Positions 1,953-64,000 of a stretch of 64,000 nucleotides of DNA are shown piece after piece. Within the stretch, counting starts at the first letter, position 1. The number at the start of each line of letters is the position of its first letter. The notes below the pieces were generated by a model, which saw nothing but the letters and a program-made list of their open reading frames with translations, was not told the origin of the DNA and ran no database searches. The stretch spans positions 30,907 to 94,906 of the forward strand of contig JAVCCW010000010.1 of NCBI GenBank assembly GCA_030765235.1. The letters are read 5' to 3'. Source of the stretch: Candidatus Gorgyraea atricola. Its GTDB lineage: Bacteria > Omnitrophota > Gorgyraeia > Gorgyraeales > Gorgyraeaceae. The position numbers and the translations under genes are program-made.

Positions 1953-1996
1953 CTCTATCTCCTTCTTGTTAACTTTGCCGTTCTGTCAAAAAATAT

Positions 1997-2055
1997 ACCA
2001 CAGAGTGCATAGAGATTTTTTTAAATTATAATTTTCTCTGTGTCCTCTGTGGTTT
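1997..2055. promoter_or_regulatory. Conserved palindromic intergenic element (CCACAGAG-N-CACAGAG ... CTCTGTG-N-CTCTGTGG) with AT-rich loop containing TATAAT; copy 1
   Basis: Near-identical (about 85%) to element at 6758-6819; both sit between stop of one minus-strand gene and start of next; loop contains a -10-like hexamer on both strands. Confidence 0.5.
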
Positions 2056-2072
2056 GTTTTTGTGGTTTCTTT

Positions 2073-6759: not shown

Positions 6760-6819
6760 ACCACAGAGAACACAGAGATCTTTTTCAATTATAGTTTTCC
6801 TCTGTGCGCTCTGTGGTTT
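6758..6819. promoter_or_regulatory. Conserved palindromic intergenic element (CCACAGAG family), copy 2
   Basis: aaaccacagagaacacagagatctttttcaattatagttttcctctgtgcgctctgtggttt; lies between outer-membrane protein gene stop (6901) and pilT start (6759); minus-strand loop reads TATAAT. Confidence 0.5.
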
Positions 6820-6900
6820 CTTTTAAATCCTTTCATCATAAAAAAGGCGCAACGGATTCTGTAAATCCGCTGCGCCTTAATACTATTCATCTTAACTTAC

Positions 6901-9644: not shown

Positions 9645-9702
9645 CCATAACCTCCGCGATCTTGAAAATGGTCTAATTATATGGTATACTTGTATTAGCC
9701 GA

Positions 9703-9790
9703 TAAGGGCAAACCCTAGAGAAATCAGGGGGCGCAAAGCCAACAGGCCTAAGTCCTTTAAACGGATATGGCGGCTGGGTTGCCAAGCGAT
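9703..9790 (+). ncRNA. Candidate c-di-GMP-I (GEMM) riboswitch aptamer, plus strand, no downstream plus-strand gene
   Basis: GGGCAAACC-cuagaGAAAucaggg-GGCGCAAAGCC followed by a hairpin carrying the canonical 11-nt GAAA tetraloop receptor halves CCUAAG ... UAUGG, then GGGUUGCC. This matches GEMM-I architecture (tetraloop hairpin, ACGCAAAGCC junction, receptor hairpin). Confidence 0.5.
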
Positions 9791-19412: not shown

Positions 19413-21047
19413 CTATATAGGGATATTAAACATATCTGCATATTTGCGCCAGAAAGGGCTTTCTTTTACGATTATCTTTGCAGTATCCATATATTGTTGT
19501 GCTTTATTAAAATTGCCGAGTTTTTCATAGCATTTTGCGGCACAGTAATATGCAATGGCATGGTCATTTTTTGCTCTTATTGCATTCTCAAACCCGCGCA
19601 GCGCCATTTCGTAATTGCCCAAACGAAAGTCGCTGTTTTCTACAAGGTTAAGCTCTATATTTAAGATATATGCCTTCTCCTGTATATATTCAGCGGTAAA
19701 ATTCTCTGTTTCGACAACCGCTTTTTTATAATGGCAGTCAATGTAACCGCCTTTGATGTAATTCTTTTTAAGGCATATATCAAACATTTCACTCCCTACA
19801 AGAGGAGTTGCAACCGTTATTCTAAACCAGTTTGCATTAATAGTTTTTAAAAATGCCCTTGTATCCTCAATATCCTGCTTTGTTTCGCCGGGGAGTCCTA
19901 TTAATATGTTCACATCCATATATATTCCCAATTCACGGCAATCGTCAGCCACAGGCTTTACCATTGAAAGGTCAAGGGGCTTGTGCATTATTTCCTTTAA
20001 AACCCTGCTGCTCCCCGATTCAATCGCCAGAACAAGCTGATCAATCCCTGCGCTTTTTAAAGCCTCAAGCATCTTTCTGTCAAGCTCATACAAAGGCAGT
20101 CCATTTTGAAAAACAGCAGTTAATCGCAATTCCTTTACTATATCAATGATCTCAAAGGCCCTCTGTTTTTTCGCAATGAAATGATCGTCCTGAAAAATAA
20201 TTACTTCTGCCCCGTATTGGTCTCTAAGGCGCTTAAAATCCTCTCTGATCCTCTTGATGCTATAATAGCGCATCCTTCTTCCATGGACCGAGTGTGATGC
20301 GCAAAAACAACAATGGTATGGGCACCCCCTGGACGTCATTACATGAAAGTTTTGTTTTTTCTTGGTGACAGCCGAATAGGCCTCTATTGCAGGGTTTAAT
20401 CCATATTCGTCTATCTCGCAAATATCATAATCATAAAAAGGTATTTCATCAAGGTCTTCGATAAAATCATGCAGGAACGTCTGTCCTCTTTCAACTTTTC
20501 TCCGCGTAATCCAGGAAGGATTTTCTTCAAAGTACGACACTTTATCATCGGCTTGCACAAGGCCTAAAAGAGGTTTTTCGCCTTCACCATAACATAGAGC
20601 GTCAAATCCTGCGCTAGTTTTAAATATATCTTTATATATATTTGTTGGAATGCCGCCGCCTGCTATAATGATGGCATCGGGAAATATGTTACGACAACAT
20701 TCTGCTATATCCAGCATATTTTGATACGAAGGCGTGAACAGCGAAGATATCCCGACTATAGTTGGCGCATAATCCAAAGTTGAAAGAGATTGCTGAAAAA
20801 AATCTACAAAAGAATGATACTCAAAACTTTCTAACTTATTTAAAGTAGTAGCAAAATCTAAAAGCTTAGTTTCTGCTGCGGCATGTTTTTTTAAGCATGA
20901 GCTCATAGACATTATACCTAAAGGCATATCGGTGAGCACACTTGCAAAATCTCCATTTTTCTTTTTTACTATTCTTGCATTATAATCAGGTTTGACAAAA
21001 TCGACATACATAATAGGCGGGGGTACTATAAATAAGACCTTGTCCAT
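19413..21047 (-). CDS. Cobalamin-binding radical SAM enzyme (class B rSAM, methyltransferase-type) with C-terminal TPR
   Basis: 544 aa; N-terminal Rossmann B12-binding-like region, rSAM cluster CPYHCCFC, C-terminal TPR-like segment. Confidence 0.7.
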   Translation of the reverse strand: MDKVLFIVPPPIMYVDFVKPDYNARIVKKKNGDFASVLTDMPLGIMSMSSCLKKHAAAETKLLDFATTLNKLESFEYHSFVDFFQQSLSTLDYAPTIVGISSLFTPSYQNMLDIAECCRNIFPDAIIIAGGGIPTNIYKDIFKTSAGFDALCYGEGEKPLLGLVQADDKVSYFEENPSWITRRKVERGQTFLHDFIEDLDEIPFYDYDICEIDEYGLNPAIEAYSAVTKKKQNFHVMTSRGCPYHCCFCASHSVHGRRMRYYSIKRIREDFKRLRDQYGAEVIIFQDDHFIAKKQRAFEIIDIVKELRLTAVFQNGLPLYELDRKMLEALKSAGIDQLVLAIESGSSRVLKEIMHKPLDLSMVKPVADDCRELGIYMDVNILIGLPGETKQDIEDTRAFLKTINANWFRITVATPLVGSEMFDICLKKNYIKGGYIDCHYKKAVVETENFTAEYIQEKAYILNIELNLVENSDFRLGNYEMALRGFENAIRAKNDHAIAYYCAAKCYEKLGNFNKAQQYMDTAKIIVKESPFWRKYADMFNIPI

Positions 21048-33231: not shown

Positions 33232-34161
33232 CTATTTTAATAATTTTGCAATGTTTTTATATATGGACTCTGGTTTTATATTGTGCATACAGCTTTTACT
33301 GTATTTACAAACAGTGTTAAAACACGGCATGCATTCTAAGCTCTTATCCGGTTTTATTACCATACCTCCATTGCAAAGAAACACCTCTTTCTCTGAGGTT
33401 GGGCCAAACATTGCAATGATGCCTTTCTTCAGCGCTATTGCAAGATGCAATCCCAGCGAATCGTTTGTAATAATAAGCCTGCAGCTATTAAGCCAGTCAA
33501 TGTAACCATTTATATCACTAAGCGACTGCTGGTATGAAATTGAATATCTTCCATCTATTAATTTCTCTAATCTTCTCCAGTTTTTTTTGGGCCATGTCTT
33601 GTTTGGCCATCGCATCCCAACCTTGGTATTAAACCCTATATCAAATCTCTGCTGAGTCTTTGGTTTATAGCCCAGTATATAGCCTTGTTCTGACCATCTT
33701 GCCCCTACCATTTCATAAAGCATCTGGGTCCAGTTTTTTTTCATCTTCCGCCGCAGCACAGGATCTTCGGAATTTGCCACTGCTTCATATGAATGCTCGT
33801 ACGCCTCTGCTGTTCCTTTTTTTACATCAAATCTGAAACCATATCTCTTCCACGCGTTTATAGAATCCGTAAGCGCGCATACACCCGGAATCTTTTCCAG
33901 ATTTATAATCATGTCGAACTCTTGGGACTTAAGCTGCAGGGAAGTGGTTAAGTCATACACCAGCAGCTTATTTATATAAGGATTGCCTGTCAAAAGGGGG
34001 CTCGCCTCTTTAGTGGTAAGCCATGTTACATCATCCTTCTTGAACAGATGCAATATTGCCGTGGTCCTAAAGACATCGCCAAGGCTGACATTTTCAGTAG
34101 AGACCTTTTTATCAATAGTCTCTGTAAACCCCATCTTAACGATAAGTATCTTTCTTTTCAT
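33232..34161 (-). CDS. GT9-family glycosyltransferase (heptosyltransferase-like); start refined to MKRKILIV
   Basis: ORF track start at 34176 lies inside the palindromic repeat; internal ATG at 34161 gives MKRKILIVKMGF...; GT9 features (LGDVFRTTAIL..., C-terminal GPTS/ FGPTSEKE). Confidence 0.6.
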   Translation of the reverse strand: MKRKILIVKMGFTETIDKKVSTENVSLGDVFRTTAILHLFKKDDVTWLTTKEASPLLTGNPYINKLLVYDLTTSLQLKSQEFDMIINLEKIPGVCALTDSINAWKRYGFRFDVKKGTAEAYEHSYEAVANSEDPVLRRKMKKNWTQMLYEMVGARWSEQGYILGYKPKTQQRFDIGFNTKVGMRWPNKTWPKKNWRRLEKLIDGRYSISYQQSLSDINGYIDWLNSCRLIITNDSLGLHLAIALKKGIIAMFGPTSEKEVFLCNGGMVIKPDKSLECMPCFNTVCKYSKSCMHNIKPESIYKNIAKLLK

Positions 34162-34171
34162 AGGAGTTAGA

Positions 34172-34226
34172 CCCATCCGACCGCGTAGGTCAGATTTAAA
34201 TCTGACCTACGCGGTCGGATGGGTAG
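34172..34226. repeat. 55-bp perfect palindromic (REP/MITE-like) element, copy 1, intergenic
   Basis: cccatccgaccgcgtaggtcagatttaaatctgacctacgcggtcggatggg; homologous (about 85%) to palindrome at 46129-46184. Confidence 0.7.
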
Positions 34227-34228
34227 TC

Positions 34229-35968
34229 TTACAGTCTCTTTAGAAGCACGAGGCTGAATTCATTGCTGGTAAAGGGCCAGGGTCCGAATTGTTTCTCAAT
34301 CACATAATGGTCTGCTAGATAGCGCATGATGTCCTGCGCATAATCCATGCCGAACCGCGCAGCCCCATATTCTGATGTCAGGCGCCTCAAGATAACAACA
34401 TATTTTACATCTTTATCCTCGAGTTCCTTGGATAGATTTTTTTCGCAGTCTGGCGTCAATGAAATCAAAAGTGGCAAAAACGCATACTGGTGCAGCGGGC
34501 TATCCCTTTCAGAGAGAAAATTTATGGTCAGGCCCTCTGGAAATACTGCAAGCTTATCAGACGGGTCAGTGTTTTTACGCAAATACTCCACTAATTGTTT
34601 GCACCTATAATAACCAGGATGCACCAGCATTGCGCCCCTTGGAGAAGATATCTTCATTGTGCGATTTTTATACCTATAAAGCGAGACAGGTACATGGGCC
34701 ATGATAAAAGATATTGATAGAACTGTAAAAGCAAATCTATAAAAAGCACGCGTGTCTTTCCTCTGCGATATACGTGGAACTATCCTCAGGAAAAAGATGT
34801 AATAACATAGCATGCCAGGGGCAAGCAGATAAAAACCACTATGTTCTGCCCTGACATTGAAAAACATGCGCGCCAATAAAAGAAGTGAAAAAATAGAAAA
34901 AACCGCCAAAAACAGGTCTTGCCTGTCTTTCTTTGCGAAATATCTTCGACAACTGACAATAAACACTAATATGCAGACAATAGGTACGCATCGATATTGC
35001 GCATTATAATGAAAGAATTCTTTTTGAAACAAAACAGTAGTAGCTGCGACAACTAATGTCACTCCAATGCCAATGAGGACCTTCTTTGTTGTTGAGATTT
35101 TTTTTACCAGAGAAATCAACCGGCCTGAGGCAAAGAATACAGCGCTCATAGCTACATAATACAAGCTTGTTTTTAGTATGGCTGCGATGTTTCTCCAAAA
35201 ATCAATAGTGCCAAGGGTCTGTCCAGTAAAAGGCCCTTTTATATCTAAGTTTATTAAAAGGGCTTCTTTGCTTGCTACAGTACTGCCTGTAATAATGCCA
35301 AAGAAACCGTAGACGATAGCTGCGGCAAGGGCTGGAAAAAGGCAATAGGCCGCTACCCTTTTAAGCCTATCCTGTTTCTGGCTATCAAGGATTATGCCAA
35401 TAAATATTGAGACCATAAGCACGATGCCTATCTCTACTCGAGTAATCAGCAAAAGCGCTATGAATAAACTGGAGAAGTATGTGCGGCTGCGATAGTAGAA
35501 AAATAAGGCTAAAAACGCTAACGTGATAGCGTGGATCGAGGCATAGCTATAGGGGATGATGTAATTGAAGATGCCTGCCTCATAGTGCTGGCTGAACGCG
35601 AATACAAAAAGAAATGTAAGCACGCATAGCGTTGAAAAAAGCGCGTTTAAAAATATGCGGGATGTCTTGTATAGGAGCACGCACATGAGAGTAGCTGTAA
35701 GTGCACCGCTTATTATAAAAGCGCGCATATGAACGCCAAAGATCATGCACAGAAGACTATTAAAGTATGGTGAAAAAGGCCCGAATTCATAAAATATATC
35801 CCTGTACGGCAATTTGCCAGAAAGGATACTTAAAGGCAAATAAAGCTCCCTACCTGTATCTATCAACAAACTCCCCCACCTGAGCCAGGATACACTAAAT
35901 AAATAAAAACCAGCTCCCATTATAATAAGAGCTGGTATCCATCCTCTCTTCCACAACCGCTTAACCAT
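34229..35968 (-). CDS. Polytopic membrane protein with C-terminal soluble domain (GT-C-like glycosyltransferase candidate); start refined to MVKRLWKRGW
   Basis: ORF track N-terminus (36187) reads through the MITE copy; internal ATG at 35968 begins the first TM helix; about 13 TM helices then about 170 aa soluble tail. Confidence 0.45.
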   Translation of the reverse strand: MVKRLWKRGWIPALIIMGAGFYLFSVSWLRWGSLLIDTGRELYLPLSILSGKLPYRDIFYEFGPFSPYFNSLLCMIFGVHMRAFIISGALTATLMCVLLYKTSRIFLNALFSTLCVLTFLFVFAFSQHYEAGIFNYIIPYSYASIHAITLAFLALFFYYRSRTYFSSLFIALLLITRVEIGIVLMVSIFIGIILDSQKQDRLKRVAAYCLFPALAAAIVYGFFGIITGSTVASKEALLINLDIKGPFTGQTLGTIDFWRNIAAILKTSLYYVAMSAVFFASGRLISLVKKISTTKKVLIGIGVTLVVAATTVLFQKEFFHYNAQYRCVPIVCILVFIVSCRRYFAKKDRQDLFLAVFSIFSLLLLARMFFNVRAEHSGFYLLAPGMLCYYIFFLRIVPRISQRKDTRAFYRFAFTVLSISFIMAHVPVSLYRYKNRTMKISSPRGAMLVHPGYYRCKQLVEYLRKNTDPSDKLAVFPEGLTINFLSERDSPLHQYAFLPLLISLTPDCEKNLSKELEDKDVKYVVILRRLTSEYGAARFGMDYAQDIMRYLADHYVIEKQFGPWPFTSNEFSLVLLKRL

Positions 35969-36044
35969 ATCGCCTATTCTACTATATAACCAATATAGGT
36001 GCAAATATATTATTACATTATTTAAATAATCGCGTTGCTTTTTT

Positions 36045-36312
36045 AAGCTAAATGGAAGGCCTGTTCGCTCAGGTGAAAATTTCCCTCCTCGCTTCGCCCC
36101 GCCCTTTCTACGAAAGGCCGGGGCTTCGCTCGGAAACAGGTCGTCTTTTATTCCGCATTTTGGCGGGACTGAAAAAACTTCACCCACACCATAGGTGTGG
36201 GTGTCGAACAGTTTTCAGCCTTTTGGGCTCATATAATGTGCCAAAGAAACCGCCAAAATGCTACATAAAAGACTAAATTTTCAAATTCGCGCCCAGACCT
36301 TCCATTTAGCTT
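36045..36312 (+). mobile_element. MITE-like element, about 268 bp, family copy 1 (TIR aagctaaatggaaggcctg...; internal hairpins)
   Basis: 23-bp imperfect terminal inverted repeats; shares more than 85% identity with 48841-49096 and, in reverse complement, 50026-50293; contains perfect hairpin cacccacaccataggtgtgggtg; no credible ORF. Confidence 0.6.
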
Positions 36313-37914: not shown

Positions 37915-38094
37915 ATGCACCGCCCAGACCACTGGCTCTCGGGGCATACGCCGTGCCGAGCGGGCACGGTGCTAAAGTAGACAAAACAGTCACTGACTGT
38001 TTTGTCTACTTTAGCGAGCGAGGCACGGGGCTGAGCAAAATTCTCACGCTGGGAGAATTTTGCGTCCCCGAGAGCCAGTGGTCTGGGTGGTGCA
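37915..38094. repeat. GC-rich element bounded by 29-bp near-perfect inverted repeats, with three nested internal hairpins (MITE-like or structured RNA)
   Basis: tgcaccgcccagaccactggctctcgggg ... ccccgagagccagtggtctgggtggtgca; internal perfect 21-bp hairpin ctaaagtagacaaaacagtca/tgactgttttgtctactttag; local GC far above window average. Confidence 0.4.
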
Positions 38095-38126
38095 AAGCTG
38101 TCACGTAACATTGAAAATATTACATT

Positions 38127-38226: not shown

Positions 38227-38264
38227 AAGTTGCAAAATGGGTGAAAGTAGGATATACTCGATGC

Positions 38265-38951
38265 ATGAAACTTTCTATTTTGATCCCGGCGTATAATGAA
38301 GAGAGGTTTATTCAGAAGGTCTTGGGGGATATAAAATCAGTCCGGATTTCGGCTGAAAAAGAGGTTATCCTTATAGATGATGGGTCGACTGATAAGACCG
38401 TGGAAAAGGCACAGGCTGTAATGCCTGGTATAAGAGTAGTGCATCATGTAAAAAACCAGGGCAAAGGCGCAGCGCTCTCTACGGGCATTGCGCATGCAAC
38501 AGGAGATATCCTGTTGATCCAGGACGCGGATCTGGAGTATAGCCCACACTCCTACCCTGACCTCCTAAAGCCATTCTTTGAGCAGAATGCAGACGTAGTA
38601 TATGGCTCGCGATTTCTGAATAAAAAACGGCCGGAAAACATGAAACTGGCGTACTTTTTGGCAAATCGCTTTGGAACCATGCTCACCAATCTCCTGTATG
38701 GCACGCATGTCACAGATGCCATGACATGCTTCAAGGTCTTCAAGGCTCACACAATTAAAGGCGTAAAATTTACAAGCAAGGGTTTTGGCGCTGATTCAGC
38801 AGAACTTACTGCCAGGATAGCTAAAGGAAAATTTAATATAAAAGAAGTGCCCATCCCTTACAAGGCAAGGACATTTGAGGAAGGAAAAAAATTCCACCCT
38901 ATCTACTCACTGAACGTCTTGTGGGCTATAATCAGATACCGATTTATCTGA
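38265..38951 (+). CDS. GT2 glycosyltransferase, dolichyl/polyprenyl-phosphate mannose (Dpm1)-like
   Basis: ORF opens with GTG at 38241; first ATG at 38265 gives [16 protein letters not shown]; DDGSTD; DAD motif ([10 protein letters not shown]). Confidence 0.75.
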
Positions 38952-43610: not shown

Positions 43611-45118
43611 CAGGCCTCCGTCAATCTTATTATATCCTCAACATGAGAAAGCGCCTCTTGTTCGCCCTTTTTAATAAAATCATTCGCAAGATGAAAATCA
43701 GTCGAGCTGGCAGATGAAAGTACAGGTCGCAGGGCAATGTTTGCTTTTTTGCAGCTATTCTCTCCGAGCACATATTCCATGGACTGCATGGTGGCCATGA
43801 TAACGTCAAAGATGTTGGGTGTAAAAATTTTTCTTAAACGTTTCATTATAGATAAGCCTATCCTTACATTAAAAGGGGCTGTAAGCATAAGATTTTTCTC
43901 TTCGCTATCCCTCTTTTTTAAAAGCATATTTTTTTCATATATATCTCTGGGGCCTGGCAAGACATTCACGGCTATTATCTTTTTCACACCCTGCTTTAAT
44001 AATATATCTACAGGCACAGGATCTGAAACCCCGCCATCAATGATCACTCTTTCCTTTTCGACCTTGGGTTTAAATATGCCTGGCACTGCTATGCTCATAT
44101 AAACCGCGTCCGCAAGCAAACCCTTCTCTATCACAAGTGTCTCTCTGTTTGCCAGGTCGTATACCATTATCTTAACAGGTATTTCCAGATCTTCAAATGT
44201 TTTTTCCTCAAAAATCTTCTTCAGAAACCTCTTCAGTCTTTTTCCAGCCAGGATGCCTGATATAGGTATTGTAAAGTCCAGCAGTCTCATGATCTTTAGC
44301 TTGCTTCTTAGTTTTCTTGCTATACTCTCTATCCTGCCTGCAGAAAAACCAAGGCCGTGCATACCTGCTATAAGCGCGCCTATGCTTGAACCTGACACAA
44401 TGTCTATAGTTATGTGCCTATCCTCCAGCATCTTCAAAACTCCTATATGCGCCAGGCCAAATGCAGAGCCGCTTCCCAGGGCAAGACCCAGTAACTTGCC
44501 TGACTCTTTCTTTGCAATACGCAAGATCGCCTTTGAATAAAGGGCGTCCTTGGATTTTAAAACAAGTGGTATCCCGCTTGAGTCTAATGCTGCATCCATG
44601 ATACCTGGCTCAGGCACAATGGCTGAGATATTTCTTTTAACTAACCACGCCATTTCCTCTTTTGAAAATCTATCGAATATATTCAGCCTGTTTACAATAA
44701 TGCTTGTCTTGGAGTGAATAGGCTCGAGGTCCTTCTCGAGCAAAACTTCTAAAAATCCATGGCTGGCTCCAAGATCGTCTTTAGTTGAATCCACAAAAAA
44801 ATGCACGACATCAGAACATGTAAACATCCTATACAGTGACTCGTCTGCCTCGCCTGAGGCATTAATTACAGTATAAAGATAATCTTTTTTTACGTTCTCG
44901 ATCTGGCGCTCTTTAATGCGGCCTTGCCTTAGGCGCTCTATTTTCACATCACTGCTTATTTTGTATTCCAGAGTACTTAAGACATCAATAAATAAAACTT
45001 TGCCTTTTGTAATCATGGCAAGCGCTGCTGCAAGGTTTATTGCATACCATGTCTTTGCCTCTCTGTGCGTAGTGTTATATACTGCTATCACCTTGCCGTT
45101 ATCGCTCATGCCTCCCAT
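43610..45118 (-). CDS. Patatin-like phospholipase with N-terminal degenerate ParA/MinD-like (P-loop-less) domain
   Basis: 502 aa; N-terminus VIAVYNTTHREAKTWYAINLAAALA aligns to ParA KGGVGKTT...NLAAALA with the P-loop destroyed; patatin oxyanion GSGSAFG and GSSIG (GxSxG) nucleophile; DGG near C-terminus. Confidence 0.65.
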   Translation of the reverse strand: MGGMSDNGKVIAVYNTTHREAKTWYAINLAAALAMITKGKVLFIDVLSTLEYKISSDVKIERLRQGRIKERQIENVKKDYLYTVINASGEADESLYRMFTCSDVVHFFVDSTKDDLGASHGFLEVLLEKDLEPIHSKTSIIVNRLNIFDRFSKEEMAWLVKRNISAIVPEPGIMDAALDSSGIPLVLKSKDALYSKAILRIAKKESGKLLGLALGSGSAFGLAHIGVLKMLEDRHITIDIVSGSSIGALIAGMHGLGFSAGRIESIARKLRSKLKIMRLLDFTIPISGILAGKRLKRFLKKIFEEKTFEDLEIPVKIMVYDLANRETLVIEKGLLADAVYMSIAVPGIFKPKVEKERVIIDGGVSDPVPVDILLKQGVKKIIAVNVLPGPRDIYEKNMLLKKRDSEEKNLMLTAPFNVRIGLSIMKRLRKIFTPNIFDVIMATMQSMEYVLGENSCKKANIALRPVLSSASSTDFHLANDFIKKGEQEALSHVEDIIRLTEA

Positions 45119-46776
45119 ATCCTCCTGGATCTTGGAAACCCCACACCCAACAATAATGCCAGATCAATATCTTCGCGGCTACCTACAATCCCCTCTTTTA
45201 AACACAATTCAGCCTGCCTTCTTATGGGGCATAAAAGTCGATTTGCTATGTCTTTTCGTCCGGATGACTGCTGCGTCTTTATTTTATCTCCAAGACCTTG
45301 CTCGAGTATCTCGCTGGCCTTATAGGCCACATCATGGCCGATCTCTTCTAAAAGGCGCAGGGGACCCACTGGCATACCAAAATCCAACATTGCATTCTCA
45401 ATATCCTCTGCATTAAAACCATTTTTCAACATAAAAAGGGCCTCATTTAGATATGGCAGGATCATGCGGTTTACAAGAAATCCGGGACTATCCTTGACCA
45501 CAAGGGGTATCTTTTTGAAGCTGCGCAAAAAGCCAATAGTTGAGCTCAGGACCTCTTTGCTCGTGAATCTCGTGGGAATAACCTCTACCAGCTTCATCTT
45601 ATACGCTGGATTAAAAAAATGCATGCCAATAAAACGCTCGGCATTCCTCAATGATCTTGACAATTCCTCAATAGAAATACACGAGGTATTTGTAGCTATT
45701 ATGCAATCCTTGCGTAACGACTTCTCTATCTGACTAAATAATATCTTTTTCTTTAGCGCATCTTCTATTATAGATTCTATCACTATATCAGTATCCTTGC
45801 ATACACCATTGCCAAATCTTATGTTTTTAATGCTTGGCCTCATGCCCCTGGAAATCGCATCTTTGCATATATTTTTTATATACGGTCTTGCCTTTTTTAA
45901 AACATTCTTATTGGCATCTGTTATATCGACTGGCAATTCTGTCTTTAAGCTTATTAGATAAGCAATATCCCTGCCCATTGTGCCGGCCCCTATAACTGAA
46001 CATCGCTTTAGGCGCGGGCTTAACAACTCAGGACCTTTATATTTATCAACCAACAAATATGAGGATAGCGCATTCTGTGCTGGCGGTTGAAAGATCTTAT
46101 CAATCACCTCTTGTCTCTCGACAGCCTCTACCTGTCCAACCGCGTAGGTTGGATTTAAATCCAACCTACGCGGTTGGACAGGTAGCCTTGCAAGCTTCTC
46201 ATAATCGCATTTTCTTGATTCTGGAATAATCTTGTCTATTATTCCCAGCTCTTTCGCCTCTTTTGCAAAAATCAACTCCCCTTTATCCATAAGAGAATCT
46301 GCTCTCTTTGATCCTATCTTTTCTTTTAATCTATGAGGACCGCCAAAACCAGGCGAGATGCCTAATTTTACCTCTGGGAGCCCGATCTTCACTCTCTTGT
46401 TTGTAGTAGCAAGTATATGGTCACAAGAGAGCGCCAGTTCCATGCCGCCACCGACACAAGCACCATCTACTATAGTAAAAGTCGGCATCTTTAAGTCAGC
46501 TATTTTGCTAAATAGCCTTTGCCCATTTTTACAAAAACTAACCACCTCTTTTTCTGTACGCATGGCAGCAAGCTCTTTAATATCTGCGCCCGCGATAAAG
46601 ACATTCTGCTTCTTGCTCGTGAAAAACAATGCGCGAAGTTCGACTTTATTACTTGTAACGCTATCTATGATACTCTCAAGCTGCTTGAAATTTTCTTTGG
46701 ATAACAGGTTTACCTCTGAATCAGGATCATTAAACTCTATAACACCCATATCATCTTTTTTGTAATAGGAGATCAT
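45106..46776 (-). CDS. FadB-like bifunctional enoyl-CoA hydratase / 3-hydroxyacyl-CoA dehydrogenase, with 18-aa in-frame palindrome-encoded insert in the interdomain linker
   Basis: 556 aa; crotonase fold N-terminus (FIAGADIKEL, GGGMELAL), 3HCDH NAD-binding VIGAGTMGRDIA; residues PVQPRRLDLNPTYAVGQV are the direct translation of the 46129-46184 palindrome. Confidence 0.75.
   Translation of the reverse strand: MISYYKKDDMGVIEFNDPDSEVNLLSKENFKQLESIIDSVTSNKVELRALFFTSKKQNVFIAGADIKELAAMRTEKEVVSFCKNGQRLFSKIADLKMPTFTIVDGACVGGGMELALSCDHILATTNKRVKIGLPEVKLGISPGFGGPHRLKEKIGSKRADSLMDKGELIFAKEAKELGIIDKIIPESRKCDYEKLARLPVQPRRLDLNPTYAVGQVEAVERQEVIDKIFQPPAQNALSSYLLVDKYKGPELLSPRLKRCSVIGAGTMGRDIAYLISLKTELPVDITDANKNVLKKARPYIKNICKDAISRGMRPSIKNIRFGNGVCKDTDIVIESIIEDALKKKILFSQIEKSLRKDCIIATNTSCISIEELSRSLRNAERFIGMHFFNPAYKMKLVEVIPTRFTSKEVLSSTIGFLRSFKKIPLVVKDSPGFLVNRMILPYLNEALFMLKNGFNAEDIENAMLDFGMPVGPLRLLEEIGHDVAYKASEILEQGLGDKIKTQQSSGRKDIANRLLCPIRRQAELCLKEGIVGSREDIDLALLLGVGFPRSRRIWEA
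46129..46184. repeat. 56-bp perfect palindromic (REP/MITE-like) element, copy 2, inside FadB-like CDS in frame
   Basis: tacctgtccaaccgcgtaggttggatttaaatccaacctacgcggttggacaggta; same family as 34172-34226 (shared core ccgcgtaggt-N-gatttaaatc-N-acctacgcgg). Confidence 0.7.
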
Positions 46777-48840: not shown

Positions 48841-49096
48841 AAGCTAAAAGGAGGCCTGTTCGCTCAGGGGAAAATTTCCCTCCTCGCCCCGCCCTTTCTA
48901 CGAAAGGGCGGGACTCGGAAACAGGTCGCCTTTCATTTTGCATTTTGGTGGGGCCGAAAAAACTTCACCCACACCATAGGTGTGGGTGTCGAACAGTTTT
49001 CGGCCTTTTTGTCTCATAGAATGTGACAAAATAAACCACCAAAATGCAAAATGAAAGACTAAATTTTCAATTCGCGAACAGGCCTCCTTTTAGCTT
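48841..49096 (+). mobile_element. MITE-like element, family copy 2 (perfect 23-bp TIR aagctaaaaggaggcctgttcgc)
   Basis: Same family as 36045-36312; perfect terminal inverted repeats; internal hairpins ccccgccctttc-uacg-gaaagggcgggg and cacccacaccataggtgtgggtg. Confidence 0.65.
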
Positions 49097-49125: not shown

Positions 49126-50022
49126 CTATAAAAAACTCAGTGCTTTTTTTGATTTAGTATTTAATATTTTGCCAATAAAGCCTCTTGCTCCTGTCATATC
49201 TTTTACTATAGAAGCATAATTAAATTCACTTATGAAAGGAGCTGTATTTATTGCCGCATTACGCAGTCTCTTTGTTTCCTCTTTTGATGGACGGGTTTCC
49301 TTCCAAATATTCTTAATGATTCCTGCAAGATGGGGTGTAAAGTTGCTTCTTATAAAATCTCCCACTTCTTTTTTACTGCGAATTATTGCTGTAATATACA
49401 TTATAACCTCATCTTCATCTAAGCCAAAGAACTCCATTAACTGATAAATCTGGCCAAATGAAGAAGGATCAGATCTAGCTAATTTTTCCCATCTTAAATG
49501 CATTCTTTCATGCCACAGTAAAGACATGACTATTTCTTCTAATGTCCTGTTCCAACTACTAGAATTAACCTCTACTTTTATCCAATCAGGATTTAACACT
49601 TTAGAAGCTTTAAAAAAACATCCATCCCCCTTTTTATATAGCTCTAACAATTTAGATGCCCCTGGCAACCTCAAGGCAGACGCTTTGTTAAGGAGTGACA
49701 ATATCTCTTTATTTTCAACTGAATCTTCTGAGGCTGTTTTTTCTGAAATTGCTAGTGCAGTATTGCTTTCGCTTCCTAAGTTTAATAGCGAGAAAAGCTG
49801 GTCCGTAACCACATAGGTCTTGAAAGGAGAATCTGTACGAACTTGGTGTATTAACTTCTCCTCCGACGGAATACTTGGCGAGTCATTTTTATCATCCTGC
49901 TCGAAATTCAGAGGAACTCTTAGGCAATCTGCGTCGATCGAATACGCTGGATTTGGGCACAAAAATGCTCCTATTAATGTAAATAGCAAGGCTATATGAT
50001 TTACCTTTCTCATATAGATCAT
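49126..50022 (-). CDS. Secreted hypothetical protein (signal peptide + CLRVP motif), bracketed by inverted MITE copies
   Basis: 298 aa; N-terminal signal peptide; shares post-signal CLRVP motif with 36370-37752 product; no recognised domain. Confidence 0.4.
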   Translation of the reverse strand: MIYMRKVNHIALLFTLIGAFLCPNPAYSIDADCLRVPLNFEQDDKNDSPSIPSEEKLIHQVRTDSPFKTYVVTDQLFSLLNLGSESNTALAISEKTASEDSVENKEILSLLNKASALRLPGASKLLELYKKGDGCFFKASKVLNPDWIKVEVNSSSWNRTLEEIVMSLLWHERMHLRWEKLARSDPSSFGQIYQLMEFFGLDEDEVIMYITAIIRSKKEVGDFIRSNFTPHLAGIIKNIWKETRPSKEETKRLRNAAINTAPFISEFNYASIVKDMTGARGFIGKILNTKSKKALSFL

Positions 50023-50025
50023 CTT

Positions 50026-50293
50026 AGCCCAAACAAGGAGGCCTGGGAGCGAATTGAAAATTTAGCCTTTTATGTAGCATTTTGGCGGTTTCTATGGCTC
50101 ATTATATGAGCCCAAAAGGCTGAAAACTGTCCGACACCCACACCTATGGTGTGGGTGGAGTTTTTTCAGTCCCGCCAAAATGCGGAATAAAAGGCGACCT
50201 GTTTCCGAGCCCCGTCCTTTTGGCTAAAAGCCAAAAGGACGGGGCGAGGAGGGAAATTTTCCCCTGAGCTCCCAGGCCTTCTTGTTTGGGCGA
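50026..50293 (-). mobile_element. MITE-like element, family copy 3, inverted orientation (TIR cccaaacaag[ag]aggcctgggagc)
   Basis: Reverse complement aligns along its length to copies 1 and 2; one internal hairpin is remodelled with compensatory changes (ccccgtccttttggc-uuuua-gccaaaaggacgggg). Confidence 0.6.
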
Positions 50294-60085: not shown

Positions 60086-60162
60086 TGGCGTCCCTAAGAG
60101 GATTCGAACCTCTGGCCCCAAGTTTAGGAAACTTGTGCTCTATCCATCTGAGCTATAGGGAC
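60086..60162 (-). tRNA. tRNA-Arg (anticodon CCU), CCA encoded
   Basis: Manual fold: acceptor GUCCCUA/UAGGGAC 7/7 bp, D-arm GCUC-AGAUGGAUA-GAGC, anticodon arm CAAGU-UUCCUAA-ACUUG, T-arm AGAGG-UUCGAAU-CCUCU, discriminator G + CCA. Confidence 0.85.
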
Positions 60163-60349: not shown

Positions 60350-60432
60350 TTGTGTAATGTTGAATGTGTAATGTGTAATGAACCAAGTTGCCCCAATTAC
60401 ATTACACTTTACACCTTACACATTACACAAAC
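60350..60432. repeat. GTGTAATG hairpin repeat, copy A (between apt stop and tRNA region)
   Basis: tgtgtaatgtgtaatgaaccaag..ccccaattac...cttacacattacacaa; same motif as 61797-61865. Confidence 0.5.
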
Positions 60433-60949: not shown

Positions 60950-61834
60950 TTAGTACTCTCCTAACTCGCCGCTTTGTTGGATAATATATATTCTTAATTT
61001 TTCCAACGCAGCGCTTTCGATCTGCCTGACTCTTTCACGCGTTATGCCAAAGACCTTTGCTGCCTCGCCAAGCGTATGAGTAGTGCCGTCATTCAAACCA
61101 AAACGCAAACCCAGTATCTTCTTCTCTCTGTCATTCATGCGGCTCAACAGGCTCTCGACTCTTTCTCGGCGTAATTTTTCTGTTATGTTCTCCATAGGAG
61201 ATGTGCTTGTCTCATCCTGTATAAGATCCATGAACTGCCCTGTGCCATCATCACCGATAGGCGCGTCCAGCGAAGAGATCTTTGTGGCTATCTCACTTAT
61301 CTCTCTTACCTTTTTCATCGGAAGCCGCATCTTTTTTGCAACCTCTTTTACCTTGGGCCGCCTGCCGTATTTCTGGGTCAGCTGTTCAGTTATTCTTTTC
61401 CACCTGTTTATTATCTCTGTCATGTAAACAGGTATCCTTATTGTCTTGCCCTGATTCGCAATGGCACGCGTTATGTATTGCTTTATCCACCAAGCACCAT
61501 ATGTGCTGAACCTGTAACCTCTATGAGGGTTGAATTTTTTAACTGCCTTAATAAGGCCAAGATTTCCCTCCTCTATAAGGTCCATCATTGGAACACCCAG
61601 CTTTGAGTATCGCTTAGCAATATTAATCACGAGCCTCAAATTAGACTGGATCATTTTCCTGCGCGCCTTGGCATCGCCTCTCTTGACTTTACGCGCAACA
61701 GATTGTTCTCCTTCAGGAGTAAGAAGAGGTATATCCTTGATCGCCCTCAAATAAAGTTTTATTGCATCCACTGTGTACCTCTCTTGCTTTCGACGTTTGT
61801 GTAATGTGTAATGTTTAATGTGTAATGAAACCAA
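60950..61834 (-). CDS. RNA polymerase sigma factor, sigma-70 family (short RpoD/RpoS-like; regions 1.2, 2, 3, 4)
   Basis: 294 aa (TTG start in track; true start uncertain); region 2 LIEEGNLGLIKAVKKFNPHRGYRFSTYGAWWIKQYI; region 4 HTLGEAAKVFGITRERVRQIE. Confidence 0.8.
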   Translation of the reverse strand: MVSLHIKHYTLHKRRKQERYTVDAIKLYLRAIKDIPLLTPEGEQSVARKVKRGDAKARRKMIQSNLRLVINIAKRYSKLGVPMMDLIEEGNLGLIKAVKKFNPHRGYRFSTYGAWWIKQYITRAIANQGKTIRIPVYMTEIINRWKRITEQLTQKYGRRPKVKEVAKKMRLPMKKVREISEIATKISSLDAPIGDDGTGQFMDLIQDETSTSPMENITEKLRRERVESLLSRMNDREKKILGLRFGLNDGTTHTLGEAAKVFGITRERVRQIESAALEKLRIYIIQQSGELGEY

Positions 61835-61865
61835 GCAACCCCAATTACCTTACACATTACACAAG
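61797..61865. repeat. GTGTAATG hairpin repeat, copy B (overlaps annotated start of sigma-factor gene; downstream of ppdK stop)
   Basis: ttgtgtaatgtgtaatgtttaatgtgtaatgaaaccaagcaaccccaattaccttacacattacacaa; arms tgtgtaatgtgtaatg / cttacacattacacaa. Confidence 0.5.
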
Positions 61866-61870
61866 ATACG

Positions 61871-64000
61871 TTATTTCCCGTTAAGCAAGGCTGCTTGAGC
61901 AGCTGCTAGCCTTGCGATAGGCACCCTGTAAGGAGAACAGCTCACGTAGTTCATGCCAACGTTATGACAGAACTTAACTGATCTTGGCTCTCCGCCGTGC
62001 TCTCCGCAGATACCGATCTTGAGTTTCTTGCGAGCTTCTCTTCCGAGCTTGATGCCCATCTTAATAAGAGAACCTACGCCTTCCTGATCGACTGATTGAA
62101 AAGGATCCTCAGGCAAGATCTTTTTGTTTATATAGTCCGGCAAAAATACACCTGCGTCATCACGGCTGTAACCAAACGTCATCTGAGTCAGATCGTTTGT
62201 GCCGAATGAGAAGAACTCTGCCTTTTCAGCGATCTTATCAGCTATTAATGCCGCGCGCGGGATCTCTATCATCGTACCTACAAGATAATTTACTTTCTTT
62301 TTTGCCTTTTTAATTACTGCCTTGGCTGTTTCGCGGACAATAGGTTCAAGAAAATCAAACTCCGCCTTTGTCCCCACCAGAGGTATCATTATCTCGGGCA
62401 AGACTTTTATGCCTTTTTTTGCCATATTGCAGGCTGCCTCCATGATCGCCCTTGTCTGCATGACGCAGAGCTCAGGATATGTGACAGATAGCCTACATCC
62501 ACGATGACCCAGCATAGGATTCATCTCATGCAGGCTCTTAACAAGATCTTTTATCCTGGCAGGTGTTTGCTTTAATCTCCTTGCCATTTCCTTTATGCCT
62601 GACTCATTGTTCGGCAGGAATTCATGTAGCGGTGGATCCAGTAACCTTATAGTAACAGGCAATCCATCCATCTCCTTAAATATGCCCTCAAAATCCTTTC
62701 TCTGAAAAGGCAACAGTTTCTTAAGCGCCTTTTCCCTTGCCTCTTTGTCCTGGGCAAGAATAAACTCCCTGACAGCCCATATCCTTTCGCCTTCAAAAAA
62801 CATATGCTCTGTCCTGGTAAGGCCTATGCCTTCAGCGCCAAGCCTGCGCGCAGCCAGAGAATCCCTTGGTGTATCTGAATTCGTGCGCACATTTATCTTG
62901 CGATACTTATCAGCCCATTCCATGATCTGGTTGAACATTTTATAAATTTCGCTCTTCTTTGCTGAGGAGTTTTCTTCTACTACTCCTGCAATAACAGGAC
63001 TCGAGGAAACCTTGATATCTCCCAGCATGACTTCCCCAGTCGAACCATCCAGAGAAATAAAATCACCTTCCTTTATCGTCTTTCCAGCAACCCTTATCTC
63101 TTTCTTTGTATAATCAATATTTAACGCGCTGCATCCAGCTATACAGCATTTTCCCCAGCCCCTGGCAACAACAGCAGCATGAGAAGTCATGCCTCCAGTT
63201 GATGTCAATATCCCTACTGCGGCATGCATACCCGCGACATCTTCAGGAGATGTCTCGTGCCTGACCAGGATAACCTTTTTGCCTTTACTCTTCCATACTT
63301 CAGCATCCCTTGCAGTAAATACTACCTGGGCTGATGCTGCGCCAGGACCAGCAGGAAGGCCTTTAGCAACTACAGTAGCATTGGATTTTGCCTTGGGTTC
63401 AAATATAGGGAAAAGAAGCTGATTGAGCTGATCCCCCTCTATCCTCATAATGGCTTCTTTAGGGCTGATCATTTTTTCTTTTACCATGTCGTACGCTATC
63501 TTTACAGCTGCCAGGCCTGTACGTTTGCCAGTGCGCGTCTGCAGCATGTAAAGCGTGCCTTCCTGGATAGTGAATTCCACGTCCTGTATATCCTTATAAT
63601 GCCTCTCTAGCTTATACCTGATAGCATCGAGCTCTTTGTAAACTTTTGGCATTTCTTTTTTCAAGTCGCTGATTGGCTCTGGCGTCCTTATGCCAGCCAC
63701 GACGTCTTCGCCCTGCGCATTTATAAGAAACTCCCCGAAAAATTTATCCTCGCCAGTAGATGGGTTACGCGTAAAGGCAACGCCTGTGCCTGAAGTATTG
63801 CCCATGTTACCGAATACCATTGCCTGGACATTTACAGCTGTTCCGAAAAGTCCGGTGATCCTGTTGATCCTCCTGTAAACTACAGCCCTTTCTGTATTCC
63901 ATGATCCGAATACCGCCTTTACAGTAGCCATCAGCTGATCCTTGGCATTATTTGGAAAAGGTTTTTTGACATGTTTCTCATACACCTTTTTATATTCTCC
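61871..64000 (-). CDS. ppdK: Pyruvate, phosphate dikinase (C-terminal about 710 aa; N-terminus beyond window end)
   Basis: Phospho-histidine motif [22 protein letters not shown]; PEP-utilising TIM barrel; ORF-track Met at 63985 is internal, frame stays open to the window edge. Confidence 0.85.

What the first reader, a model, noticed from the sequence alone, without database searches (positions are those of the whole stretch)
46129..46184. 55-56 bp perfect palindrome present twice; one copy is inserted in-frame in the interdomain linker of the FadB-like enzyme
The element at 34172-34226 (intergenic, between the GT9 gene and a membrane protein gene) and at 46129-46184 share a core (ccgcgtaggt-N-gatttaaatc-N-acctacgcgg) and are each perfect hairpins. 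The second copy lies inside CDS 45106-46776. It keeps the reading frame and encodes PVQPRRLDLNPTYAVGQV exactly between the crotonase and 3-hydroxyacyl-CoA dehydrogenase domains. This is an example of a REP/MITE-like palindrome tolerated as a protein linker insertion. It also means a strong RNA/DNA hairpin exists in the middle of the gene and could attenuate the downstream dehydrogenase half.
Basis: seen in the sequence. Interest (0 to 1): 0.7.

Follow-up and report, generated by a model that had tools for sequence, protein, structure and literature searches.

The report
Mobile palindrome translated inside enzyme linker
The two perfect palindromes belong to a family of small mobile hairpin repeats (REP/REPIN-like, partnered with a RAYT-type transposase) that is common in Omnitrophota bacteria; one copy has long sat in frame in the flexible linker of a fatty-acid oxidation enzyme, which is a known kind of event and not a new mechanism.

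Summary
Perfect palindromes lie at 46128-46185 (58 bp, inside the FadB-like CDS) and at 34171-34224 (54 bp, intergenic). They share a core that chance does not explain.

They belong to a dispersed repeat family in Omnitrophota, with at least 15 copies in one related MAG. The consensus is ACCTGTCCGACCGCGTAGGTCGGATTTAAATCCGACCTACGCGGTCGGACAGGT. Short forms of this palindrome, and lineage-specific relatives of it, flank a RAYT-like Y1 transposase gene on both sides in all four lineages checked. That is the defining REP/REPIN-RAYT arrangement.

The in-gene copy is not a recent 18-aa insertion. Orthologs at 77-83% identity carry a homologous palindrome centred on the same nucleotide. Among five orthologs, 17 of 29 base pairs changed on both sides, and GTA-G stayed invariant. 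Two orthologs at about 50% identity carry other palindromes at the same codon, one of them unrelated in sequence. One has a decayed copy, one has other sequence at the site, and three have none.

Only one of three reading frames is open, and it is the one used. The encoded residues 198-217 include the lowest-confidence internal segment of the AlphaFold model. There is no terminator-like T-run.

Intragenic GTAG-REP dimers encoding 20-30 aa were already described (Di Nocera 2013). This is a new member of a known kind. The one added point is that the site stays occupied across lineages.

The parts
46128..46185 (.). In-gene copy: 58-bp perfect palindrome of REPIN-like architecture. Two inverted 17-nt units, CCAACC-GCGTA-GGTTGG, are separated by ATTTAAAT and carry outer arms CTACCTGT / ACAGGTAG.
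   Evidence: It is a full-length family member that differs from the family consensus by four coordinated transitions (CCGACC>CCAACC and GGTCGG>GGTTGG in both halves).
46126..46185 (-). Codons 198-217 (LPVQPRRLDLNPTYAVGQVE) of the FadB-like protein, encoded by the palindrome in its only open frame.
   Evidence: frames 2 and 3 contain TAA/TAG stops. AlphaFold pLDDT is below 50 at residues 205-210, and block 201-210 has mean 49, the lowest internal block.
46144..46147 (+). GTAG tetranucleotide of the left half. Its mirror CTAC is at 46166-46169, and the central spacer ATTTAAAT is at 46153-46160.
   Evidence: In the alignment of five in-gene orthologous copies, G, T, A and the fifth G of GTAGG are invariant.
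45106..46776 (-). Host gene: 556-aa fused enoyl-CoA hydratase / 3-hydroxyacyl-CoA dehydrogenase (FadB-like). It is identical to MDP8229932.1 of a Candidatus Gorgyraea MAG.
34171..34224 (.). Intergenic copy: 54-bp perfect palindrome ACCCATCCGACCGCGTAGGTCAGATTTAAATCTGACCTACGCGGTCGGATGGGT. It fills the gap between the stop of ORF 34229-36187(-) and the start of the GT9 gene 33232-34176(-). The predicted ATG of the GT9 ORF lies inside the outer arm GGATGGGT.
   Evidence: Its outer arms ACCCATCCGACC / GGTCGGATGGGT are identical to those of the palindromes flanking the RAYT-like gene in L024.
34185..34210 (.). Core of the intergenic copy, GTAGGTCAG-ATTTAAAT-CTGACCTAC. The same CAG/CTG variant occurs in L033.

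Best explanation
Both palindromes are members of a REP/REPIN-type family of small non-autonomous mobile hairpins. The family is dispersed in Candidatus Gorgyraea and related Omnitrophota, and its partner enzyme is a RAYT-like HUH/Y1 transposase. Each element is two inverted GTAG-containing REP units that together form one long hairpin.

One copy landed long ago in the only stop-free frame in the interdomain linker of the FadB-like gene. It has been carried through speciation and is translated as a disordered 19-20-aa loop that the enzyme tolerates (inferred). Its arms stay complementary because changes in one arm are copied to, or compensated in, the other. The likely routes are intramolecular template switching at quasipalindromes and/or selection for the hairpin that the transposase recognises (inferred).

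In other lineages the same slot has been re-occupied by other palindromes, or the copy has decayed. The same turnover is seen at intergenic slots.

Shown here: family membership, the RAYT flanking arrangement in relatives, orthologous position, covariation, and the open frame. Inferred: actual mobilisation by the RAYT, the mechanism that keeps the arms symmetric, and the lack of a host function.
For: (1) Family. A genome-collection scan found 27 loci, nearly all in Omnitrophota MAGs, with 14 matches in one MAG (CAZWYD01). That MAG also carries an imperfect in-gene copy and a short form. Copies are perfect palindromes of 26-58 bp with one shared 54-bp consensus, and some are truncated or asymmetric.

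(2) RAYT link. In L024 a 224-aa Y1_Tnp protein is flanked on both sides by ACCCATCCGACCTCGTAGGTCGACCTACGAGGTCGGATGGGT. These are the same outer arms as window copy 1. Homologous RAYT-like genes in three further lineages (L118/L120, L116/L117, L121) are each flanked on both sides by 42-54-bp palindromes that are perfect or carry a single mismatch and are lineage-specific. The protein's best NCBIfam hit is REP_Tyr_transpos, and its best PDB hit is E. coli TnpA-REP 4ER8, with the HUH and YxxxNP motifs aligned. L024 and L118 share the synteny Iso_dh-Ldh-RAYT-Pyr_redox. The window's MAG encodes a member of this clade (MDP8230467.1, against MDP8229932.1 for the FadB-like protein).

(3) Old in-gene copy. 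Window, L001-3, L004-5 and L006-7 have palindromes centred at gene nucleotides 620-620.5. 17 of 29 pairs changed on both sides, 90.9% of cells are paired, 0 of 500 shuffles reach this, and the slid controls collapse.

(4) Changes made in place. The L001/CAZWYD in-gene copy has CCGTG/CACGG, while 13 of the 14 other long-form copies found in that genome have CCGCG and one has CCTCG. The CAZWYD copy also carries one unmirrored T>G.

(5) Tolerance. Only one frame is open. pLDDT is lowest here. The peptide diverges far more than the rest of the protein. A second in-frame copy sits inside a PMT_2 glycosyltransferase in L011.

(6) Slot turnover is general. L037 and L122 are 80% identical proteins, yet they carry unrelated palindromes at this codon. 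The Iso_dh-Ldh intergenic slot and the slot downstream of the RAYT gene also differ between L024 and L118.

(7) Precedent. Intragenic GTAG REP dimers encoding 20-30 aa are described in PMC3733652. Compensatory changes in REPINs are described in PMC3116915. Arm homogenisation by template switching is described in PMC7202029 and PMC8604942.
Against: The window itself has only two copies and no RAYT gene.

The RAYT of the same MAG was seen only on other contigs that carry the identical protein. Its flanking palindromes are homologous in the arms (about 17 of 24 positions, by eye) but lack GTAG, so the window copies may no longer have an active partner.

The RAYT-like proteins score below NCBIfam's curated cut-off (63.6 against 80 bits).

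Transposition was not observed.

Palindromes recur within a few nucleotides of the same position in orthologs down to 50% identity, and some are unrelated in sequence. Passive tolerance alone does not predict this. It needs either targeted re-insertion or a selected role for a hairpin at this place.
Confidence: 0.75

Rival explanations
1. The hairpin is a selected intragenic regulatory structure. A strong RNA (or DNA) stem at the boundary between the crotonase and dehydrogenase halves would pause ribosomes for co-translational folding, or serve as a processing or attenuation site. It would be kept by host selection whatever its sequence.
For: Perfect or near-perfect palindromes of 40-61 bp sit at the same codon in 6 of 11 distinct orthologs examined. 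These include unrelated sequences in L037 and L122. Covariation is strong and the peptide is poorly conserved. The RNA stem is very stable.
Against: L038, L123 and L124 have no palindrome. L036 has a decayed one, and L008 has other sequence at the site. The same family occurs intergenically and around a transposase gene. Intergenic slots show the same turnover. No T-run or terminator signal is present. The CAZWYD copy carries an uncompensated change in GTAG.
Confidence: 0.15
2. The palindromes are binding sites for a symmetric DNA-binding host protein (an operator, a nucleoid or partition site, or a restriction-modification or uptake signal). The in-gene copy would then be a functional site that happens to be coding.
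For: The dyad symmetry is perfect, with two 17-bp sub-palindromes 25 bp apart centre to centre, a conserved GTAGG core and an AT-rich centre (ATTTAAAT).
Against: At 54-58 bp with fully paired arms, the element is far longer than typical operators. The arms covary freely while only GTA-G stays fixed. Copies are truncated to very different lengths (26-58 bp). The consistent genomic partner is a Y1 transposase gene flanked by the repeats.
Confidence: 0.06
3. The 18-20 residues are an ancestral protein linker, and the palindromy is coincidental or an assembly artefact.
For: All orthologs have a linker of roughly similar length at this place.
Against: The DNA belongs to a dispersed family with intergenic copies. 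The amino acids are not conserved while the base pairs are. The palindrome is present in independent JGI, ENA and NCBI assemblies. The expected chance occurrence is 0.00.
Confidence: 0.01

Closest known systems
Intragenic GTAG-tagged REPs and REP dimers (Di Nocera, De Gregorio & Rocco 2013, PMC3733652)
   Same: These are short palindromic repeats with a conserved GTAG, mostly intergenic. Some copies or head-to-head dimers are inserted in frame in known genes and encode 20-30 aa. They are associated with RAYT genes ('REPtrons'). That paper also reports different REPs at about the same site in the recB genes of two Xanthomonas species.
   Different: The host phylum is Omnitrophota; no paper in the searched library mentions both Omnitrophota and REP/RAYT. 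Here the whole 54-58-bp unit is a perfect palindrome, and GTAG lies inside the paired region. The occupied codon can be followed across orthologs down to about 50% identity.
REPIN-RAYT systems (Bertels & Rainey 2011, PMC3116915; Bertels et al. 2017, PMC5581495)
   Same: Two inverted REPs form one hairpin. Compensatory changes across the hairpin are common. The copies flank a single-copy, vertically inherited RAYT gene. Positions persist over long times.
   Different: The described REPIN-rich RAYT groups 2 and 3 are exemplified there by Escherichia and Pseudomonas. REPINs there are extragenic and usually imperfect, with a spacer. This RAYT clade scores below the curated RAYT model cut-off.
Rickettsia palindromic elements (RPE; Ogata et al. 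2000, from my own knowledge and as summarised in PMC3733652)
   Same: These are palindromic repeats inserted in frame in protein-coding genes, translated and tolerated at permissive sites.
   Different: RPEs are longer (about 100-150 bp for RPE-1). The short ones are CGTC-tagged, not GTAG-tagged. They are restricted to Rickettsia and have no dedicated transposase.
Quasipalindrome template-switch mutagenesis (PMC7202029, PMC8604942)
   Same: It supplies a known DNA-level process that homogenises the two arms of an inverted repeat, including inside coding sequence. It would turn single-arm mutations into mirrored pairs.
   Different: It is a mutational mechanism, not an element family. Its action on these elements is inferred, not shown.

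Membership tests
REP / REPIN (GTAG type) | A short palindromic unit present in many dispersed copies in a genome | tested here: met
   There are 14 exact-core matches in one related MAG (CAZWYD01), plus an imperfect in-gene copy and a short form there. Several more occur in other Omnitrophota MAGs. Only 2 copies lie in this 64-kb window. The rest of the source genome could not be read.
REP / REPIN (GTAG type) | Conserved GTAG tetranucleotide | tested here: met
   GTAG/CTAC is present in both window copies. G, T, A and the following G are invariant among five orthologous in-gene copies while the neighbouring pairs covary; L006 has GTAA. Unlike canonical REPs, GTAG here is base-paired with the CTAC of the other half. 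The palindromes flanking the RAYT genes in L116 and L121 lack GTAG.
REP / REPIN (GTAG type) | Two REP units in inverted orientation forming one hairpin (REPIN architecture) | tested here: met
   Each half is itself a small hairpin (CCAACC-GCGTA-GGTTGG), and the halves are inverted around ATTTAAAT. The 58-mer folds as one stem of -34.3 kcal/mol as DNA.
REP / REPIN (GTAG type) | Copies flank the cognate RAYT gene | tested here: met
   Met in relatives: L024 (both sides, with the same outer arms as window copy 1), L118/L120, L116/L117 and L121. For the window's own genome it is only indirect. RAYT P0210 (MDP8230467.1) belongs to the same MAG submission, and it is flanked by arm-homologous palindromes without GTAG.
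REP / REPIN (GTAG type) | Extragenic location | tested here: not met
   Copy 1 is intergenic. Copy 2 lies inside a CDS, as does the L011 copy. Intragenic exceptions are documented for GTAG REPs.
REP / REPIN (GTAG type) | Mobilised by the RAYT (binding and cleavage of the single-stranded hairpin) | not testable with these tools
   There are no excision or insertion polymorphisms of this family in the data, and no biochemistry.
RAYT (REP-associated tyrosine transposase) | HUH and catalytic Tyr motifs, and similarity to RAYTs rather than to IS200 transposases | tested here: inconclusive
   The best NCBIfam hit is REP_Tyr_transpos NF047646, E = 1.8e-17, but 63.6 bits against a cut-off of 80. Pfam Y1_Tnp scores 30.4 bits against a cut-off of 23. 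The best PDB hit is 4ER8 TnpA-REP at E = 1e-4, against about 0.6-0.7 for the other matched chains, which are deposited as 'transposase'. PTHIHLV aligns with PEHMHCI, and RYIHLNP with DYIYINP.
RAYT (REP-associated tyrosine transposase) | A fixed chromosomal locus that is vertically inherited, not multi-copy like an IS | tested here: met
   L024 and L118 (85% identical proteins) share the synteny Iso_dh-Ldh-RAYT-Pyr_redox. Only two lineages were compared. One SAG has two different RAYT-like genes, each with its own repeat type.
Rickettsia palindromic elements (RPE) | CGTC tag or 100-150-bp unit, restricted to Rickettsia | tested here: not met
   These elements are 54-58 bp, GTAG-tagged and in Omnitrophota. 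They share only the behaviour of in-frame insertion.
Classical MITE | Terminal inverted repeats plus a target-site duplication | tested here: not met
   No consistent direct repeat flanks the copies (flanks listed). The whole element is one palindrome.
Intrinsic terminator | A G+C-rich stem followed by a T-run | tested here: not met
   Neither palindrome is reported by the terminator scan, and no T-run follows on either strand.

The most novel reading that the evidence does not exclude
The codon-198 position of this FadB-like gene may be a persistent 'hairpin slot'. Lineages whose proteins are only about 50% identical keep a 40-61-bp perfect or near-perfect palindrome within a few nucleotides of the same position, and proteins that are 80% identical can carry unrelated palindromes there. 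That would mean one of two things. Either RAYT-type elements home to pre-existing hairpins and replace them in place, even inside a gene. Or a strong hairpin at this domain boundary is itself selected and mobile palindromes are recruited to supply it.
Probability: 0.25. Interest if true: 0.6.

Novelty: new member of a known kind. Interest (0 to 1): 0.4.

Why it matters
It extends REP/REPIN-RAYT biology to Omnitrophota, an uncultured phylum; I found no paper in the searched library that mentions both. It also gives a clean case in which nucleic-acid symmetry, not the protein sequence, is what is conserved inside a coding region: 17 of 29 pairs were compensated across species. For annotation, variable R/P-rich linker peptides in these genomes can be translated mobile DNA. 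If the slot-persistence reading is right, the locus would be a natural system for asking how RAYTs choose targets, or whether intragenic hairpins at domain boundaries have a function. As it stands, this is an instructive example and not a new principle.

Tried and rejected
1. The exact-protein look-up of the window's FadB found no contig on record, so the rest of the source MAG could not be read.

2. The single metagenome scan, run with the FadB alignment, used generic motifs. It would have been better spent on a DNA pattern.

3. The search for proteins carrying the REP-encoded peptide failed. The 18-aa query was too short. A tripled query matched 131 word candidates, but none scored E <= 10.

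4. tblastn with both RAYT-like proteins found no RAYT in the window. The Gorgyraea-type RAYT-flank palindrome is absent from the window.

5. Rfam shows no family at either palindrome or at the other repeats. It gave only sub-threshold generic hairpin (miRNA) matches.

6. The 298-aa ORF flanked by the 160-bp repeats was tested as a possible transposase. It has no Pfam hit, and a 294-aa gene occupies the same position in L001, so it is probably a host gene.

7. Ideas rejected: that this is a split gene with an intergenic terminator (the frame is continuous in all orthologs); that it is an assembly artefact (it appears in independent assemblies); and that there is a target-site duplication (none is consistent across copies).

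8. No orthologs of the genes flanking copy 1 were among the fetched loci, so the age of copy 1 is unknown.
Full report
**1. Checking the observation**

- The window holds two perfect palindromes. One is at 46128-46185: 58 bp, CTACCTGTCCAACCGCGTAGGTTGGATTTAAATCCAACCTACGCGGTTGGACAGGTAG. The other is at 34171-34224: 54 bp, ACCCATCCGACCGCGTAGGTCAGATTTAAATCTGACCTACGCGGTCGGATGGGT.
- Their shared 36-nt pattern occurs only at these two places, against 0.00 expected from shuffles.
- Every difference between the two copies is mirrored in the opposite arm.
- The first copy lies inside ORF 45106-46776 (minus strand, 556 aa), which has ECH_1/ECH_2 at residues 10-199 and 3HCDH_N at 260-429.
- The palindrome encodes L198-E217 in frame.
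- It is a very strong hairpin as RNA (-62.6 kcal/mol in 118 nt, z = -10.9) and as DNA (-34.3 kcal/mol, z = -15.5).

**2. Source organism and host gene**

- The protein is identical to MDP8229932.1 from a Candidatus Gorgyraea MAG in the phylum Omnitrophota.
- Synteny is conserved in the related contigs: M48 peptidase, LOG-like protein, 134-aa ORF, FadB-like gene, patatin, then response regulator/histidine kinase.

**3. Is it an 18-aa insertion relative to orthologs?**

- In the 20-sequence alignment every ortholog has a variable linker at this place. The window protein is not longer than its closest relatives.
- Reading the DNA shows why. The orthologs at 83% (L001-3), 78% (L004-5) and 77% (L006-7) identity each carry a perfect palindrome centred at gene nucleotides 620-620.5, but with different sequences:
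  - L001: CTGTCCGACCGTGTAGGTCGGATTTAAATCCGACCTACACGGTCGGACAG
  - L004: CGACCTCGTAGGTCGGATTTAAATCCGACCTACGAGGTCG
  - L006: CCTGGTCAACTTCGTAAGTTGCCCTTTGGGCAACTTACGAAGTTGACCAGG
- On an alignment of five in-gene copies, 17 of 29 pairs changed on both sides, 90.9% of cells are paired, and 0 of 500 shuffles reach this. Sliding the partner by 1-3 columns drops pairing to 28-44%.
- The invariant columns spell GTA-G.
- The encoded peptide changes radically. For example, LPVQPRRLDLNPTYAVGQVE in the window corresponds to LPGQLRKLPFGQLTKLTRSE in L006, about 25% identity against 77% for the whole protein.
- So what is conserved is nucleic-acid symmetry, not protein sequence.

**4. More distant orthologs**

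- L037 (about 50% identity) has a 56-bp palindrome with one mismatch and a GCGTAGG core at the same codons (197-215).
- L122 is 51% identical to the window protein and 80% identical to the protein in L037. It has an unrelated perfect 61-bp palindrome at codons 198-218.
- L036 has a decayed copy, CGCAGGATGCCATTTGGCCACCTACGCGG, plus tandem repeats.
- L008 has other sequence at the site.
- L038, L123 and L124 have no palindrome.
- In total, 6 of 11 distinct orthologs carry a perfect or one-mismatch palindrome within a few nucleotides of the same position. At least one of them (L122) is unrelated in sequence to the rest.

**5. What the element is**

- A scan of species-representative genomes with GTAGGT-N3-ATTTAAAT-N3-ACCTAC returned 27 loci. 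Nearly all are Omnitrophota MAGs.
- One MAG, CAZWYD01, is labelled Planctomycetia but shares loci with L001-3. It has 14 matches, plus an imperfect in-gene copy and a short form.
- The consensus is the 54-mer ACCTGTCCGACCGCGTAGGTCGGATTTAAATCCGACCTACGCGGTCGGACAGGT.
- Copies range from 26 to 58 bp. Several are truncated or asymmetric, as expected for decaying repeats.
- Most copies are intergenic, often directly next to gene starts or ends.
- Each half is itself a small hairpin (CCGACC-GCGTA-GGTCGG). The unit is therefore two inverted REP-like hairpins around an 8-nt spacer, which is REPIN architecture.

**6. The partner enzyme**

- In the single-cell genome AM-312-B13 (L024), a 224-aa Y1_Tnp protein is flanked on both sides by ACCCATCCGACCTCGTAGGTCGACCTACGAGGTCGGATGGGT. 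This has the same outer arms as window copy 1 but lacks the GATTTAAATC centre.
- Homologs of this protein number more than 3,400; nearly all hits that carry a source name are from Omnitrophota.
- In three further lineages the homologous gene is flanked on both sides by 42-54-bp palindromes that are perfect or have one mismatch and are lineage-specific. They share the outer motif ACC-Y-R-T-C/A-C.
- The best family match is NCBIfam REP_Tyr_transpos. It scores 63.6 bits, below the 80-bit cut-off, so protein-level membership is not formally met.
- The best solved structure is E. coli TnpA-REP 4ER8 (E = 1e-4), with the HUH and YxxxNP motifs aligned.
- L024 and L118 keep the gene in the same chromosomal context.
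- The window has no such gene.
- The same MAG submission encodes a clade member, MDP8230467.1. On contigs that carry the identical protein, its flanking palindromes resemble the window copies in the arms but lack GTAG. No copy of that type is in the window.

**7. How the in-gene copy is tolerated**

- The palindrome reads the same on both strands, and only one of its three frames lacks a stop codon. That frame is the one used in the FadB-like gene.
- AlphaFold (mean pLDDT 79.9) gives pLDDT below 50 for residues 205-210. The 201-210 block, mean 49, is the lowest internal block. The segment is mostly coil before a helix that starts at residue 213.
- A second in-frame copy (DPVRPRRSDLNPTYEVF) sits inside the PMT_2 domain match of a membrane glycosyltransferase in L011.
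- FadB orthologs carry other small in-frame hairpins in a C-terminal variable region. L004-7 have two tandem TGTTCGAGG-CCGAA-CCTCGAACA units. L036 has GTAGAGACGAGGCATGCCTCGTCTCTAC. The window lacks these.

**8. How the symmetry is kept (inference)**

- In the L001/CAZWYD species, the in-gene copy has CCGTG/CACGG. Of the 14 other long-form copies found in that genome, 13 have CCGCG and one has CCTCG. So that mirrored pair arose in place and was not copied from another copy.
- The CAZWYD assembly also carries one unmirrored T>G that turns GTAG into GGAG. This looks like a single-arm mutation caught before it was mirrored or removed.
- Two known processes fit. One is template switching at quasipalindromes, which homogenises the arms (PMC7202029, PMC8604942). 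The other is selection for the hairpin the transposase recognises; compensatory changes are common in REPINs (PMC3116915).
- Genome-specific variants of the core tend to be shared between the in-gene copy and other copies. The window has CCGCG in both copies. L004 and the RAYT flank from the same sample (L118) both have CCTCG. This hints at some concerted evolution, but the sample is too small to decide.

**9. Function**

- Neither palindrome looks like an intrinsic terminator.
- Slot turnover is not specific to FadB. The Iso_dh-Ldh intergenic slot and the slot downstream of the RAYT gene hold different palindromes in L024 and L118.
- This points to element biology and not to a FadB-specific function.
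- It does not exclude a role for a hairpin at the domain boundary. I give that rival 0.15.

**10. Comparison with what is known**

- Di Nocera et al. 2013 describe GTAG-tagged REPs and their association with RAYT genes. They also describe intragenic REPs and dimers that encode 20-30 aa, and different REPs at about the same site of recB in two Xanthomonas species.
- Bertels & Rainey describe REPINs, their compensatory changes and single-copy RAYTs.
- Rickettsia RPEs are the classic translated palindromes.
- No paper in the searched library mentions both Omnitrophota and REP/RAYT.
- Verdict: a new member of a known kind. Its features are perfect dyad symmetry, a translated copy that has persisted across species, and a slot that stays occupied.

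Noticed in passing
window 36130-36290 (+), 48915-49075 (+), 50050-50210 (inverted): Three copies of a repeat of about 160 bp. It has terminal inverted repeats (GYCTTTYAT...GCATTTTGGYGG) and an inner hairpin CACCCACACCATAGGTGTGGGTG. Two copies flank, in inverted orientation, a conserved 298-aa ORF (49126-50022, minus strand) that has no Pfam hit. No Rfam family matches.
   Followed up: partly
window 37917-38095: A long imperfect hairpin of about 180 nt (arms gcaccgcccagaccactggctctcgggg / ccccgagagccagtggtctgggtggtgc). Its centre is a perfect 45-bp palindrome (37971-38015) containing GTAG...CTAC. It is intergenic, upstream of the GT2 gene 38241-38951. It may be a second REPIN-like family. Rfam gives only sub-threshold generic hairpin hits.
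   Followed up: partly
window 9697-9786 (+): A c-di-GMP-I riboswitch aptamer (68.8 bits against a gathering score of 35).
   Followed up: no
window 60089-60162 (-), 60350-60430, 61797-61873: A tRNA gene, followed by two inverted arrays of TGTGTAATG / CATTACACA repeats.
   Followed up: no
window 1989-2061 and 6750-6827: Two copies of another hairpin repeat built on AAACCACAGAG...CTCTGTGGTTT.
   Followed up: no
window 48881-48919 and 50204-50250: G+C-rich hairpins (TCCTCGCCCCGYCCTTT...AAAGGRCGGGGCGAGGA) directly next to the 160-bp repeats.
   Followed up: no
L008 19400-19540 and 20200-20260: A second RAYT-like gene (19612-20202, 37% identical to the L024 one) in the same single-cell genome. It is flanked by a different GTAG repeat, GAGAGTAGGGACGTCCCATTTGGGGACACCCTAC, present in several tandem partial copies upstream. 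So this genome has two repeat-specific REPtrons.
   Followed up: partly
L004 2190-2250, L006 1940-2000 (FadB C-terminal region); L036 1819-1846: Other small hairpins are translated in frame in a C-terminal variable region of FadB orthologs. They are absent from the window gene, which gives a presence/absence polymorphism of in-frame hairpin insertions. L004 and L006 have tandem TGTTCGAGGCCGAACCTCGAACA units. L036 has GTAGAGACGAGGCATGCCTCGTCTCTAC.
   Followed up: partly
L013, L019, L029, L031 (Omnitrophica RIFOXYB12_FULL_50_7): In this genome the core GTAGGTCACATTTAAATGTGACCTAC is embedded in a larger repeat that is not palindromic (…GCGTCTC-CCC-core-GGG-TGGCAAAGAAGG…) and occurs in both orientations.
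   Followed up: no
L116 821-1337: A PhdYeFM/ParE toxin-antitoxin pair lies directly downstream of the RAYT-like gene of Candidatus Gorgyraea atricola.
   Followed up: no
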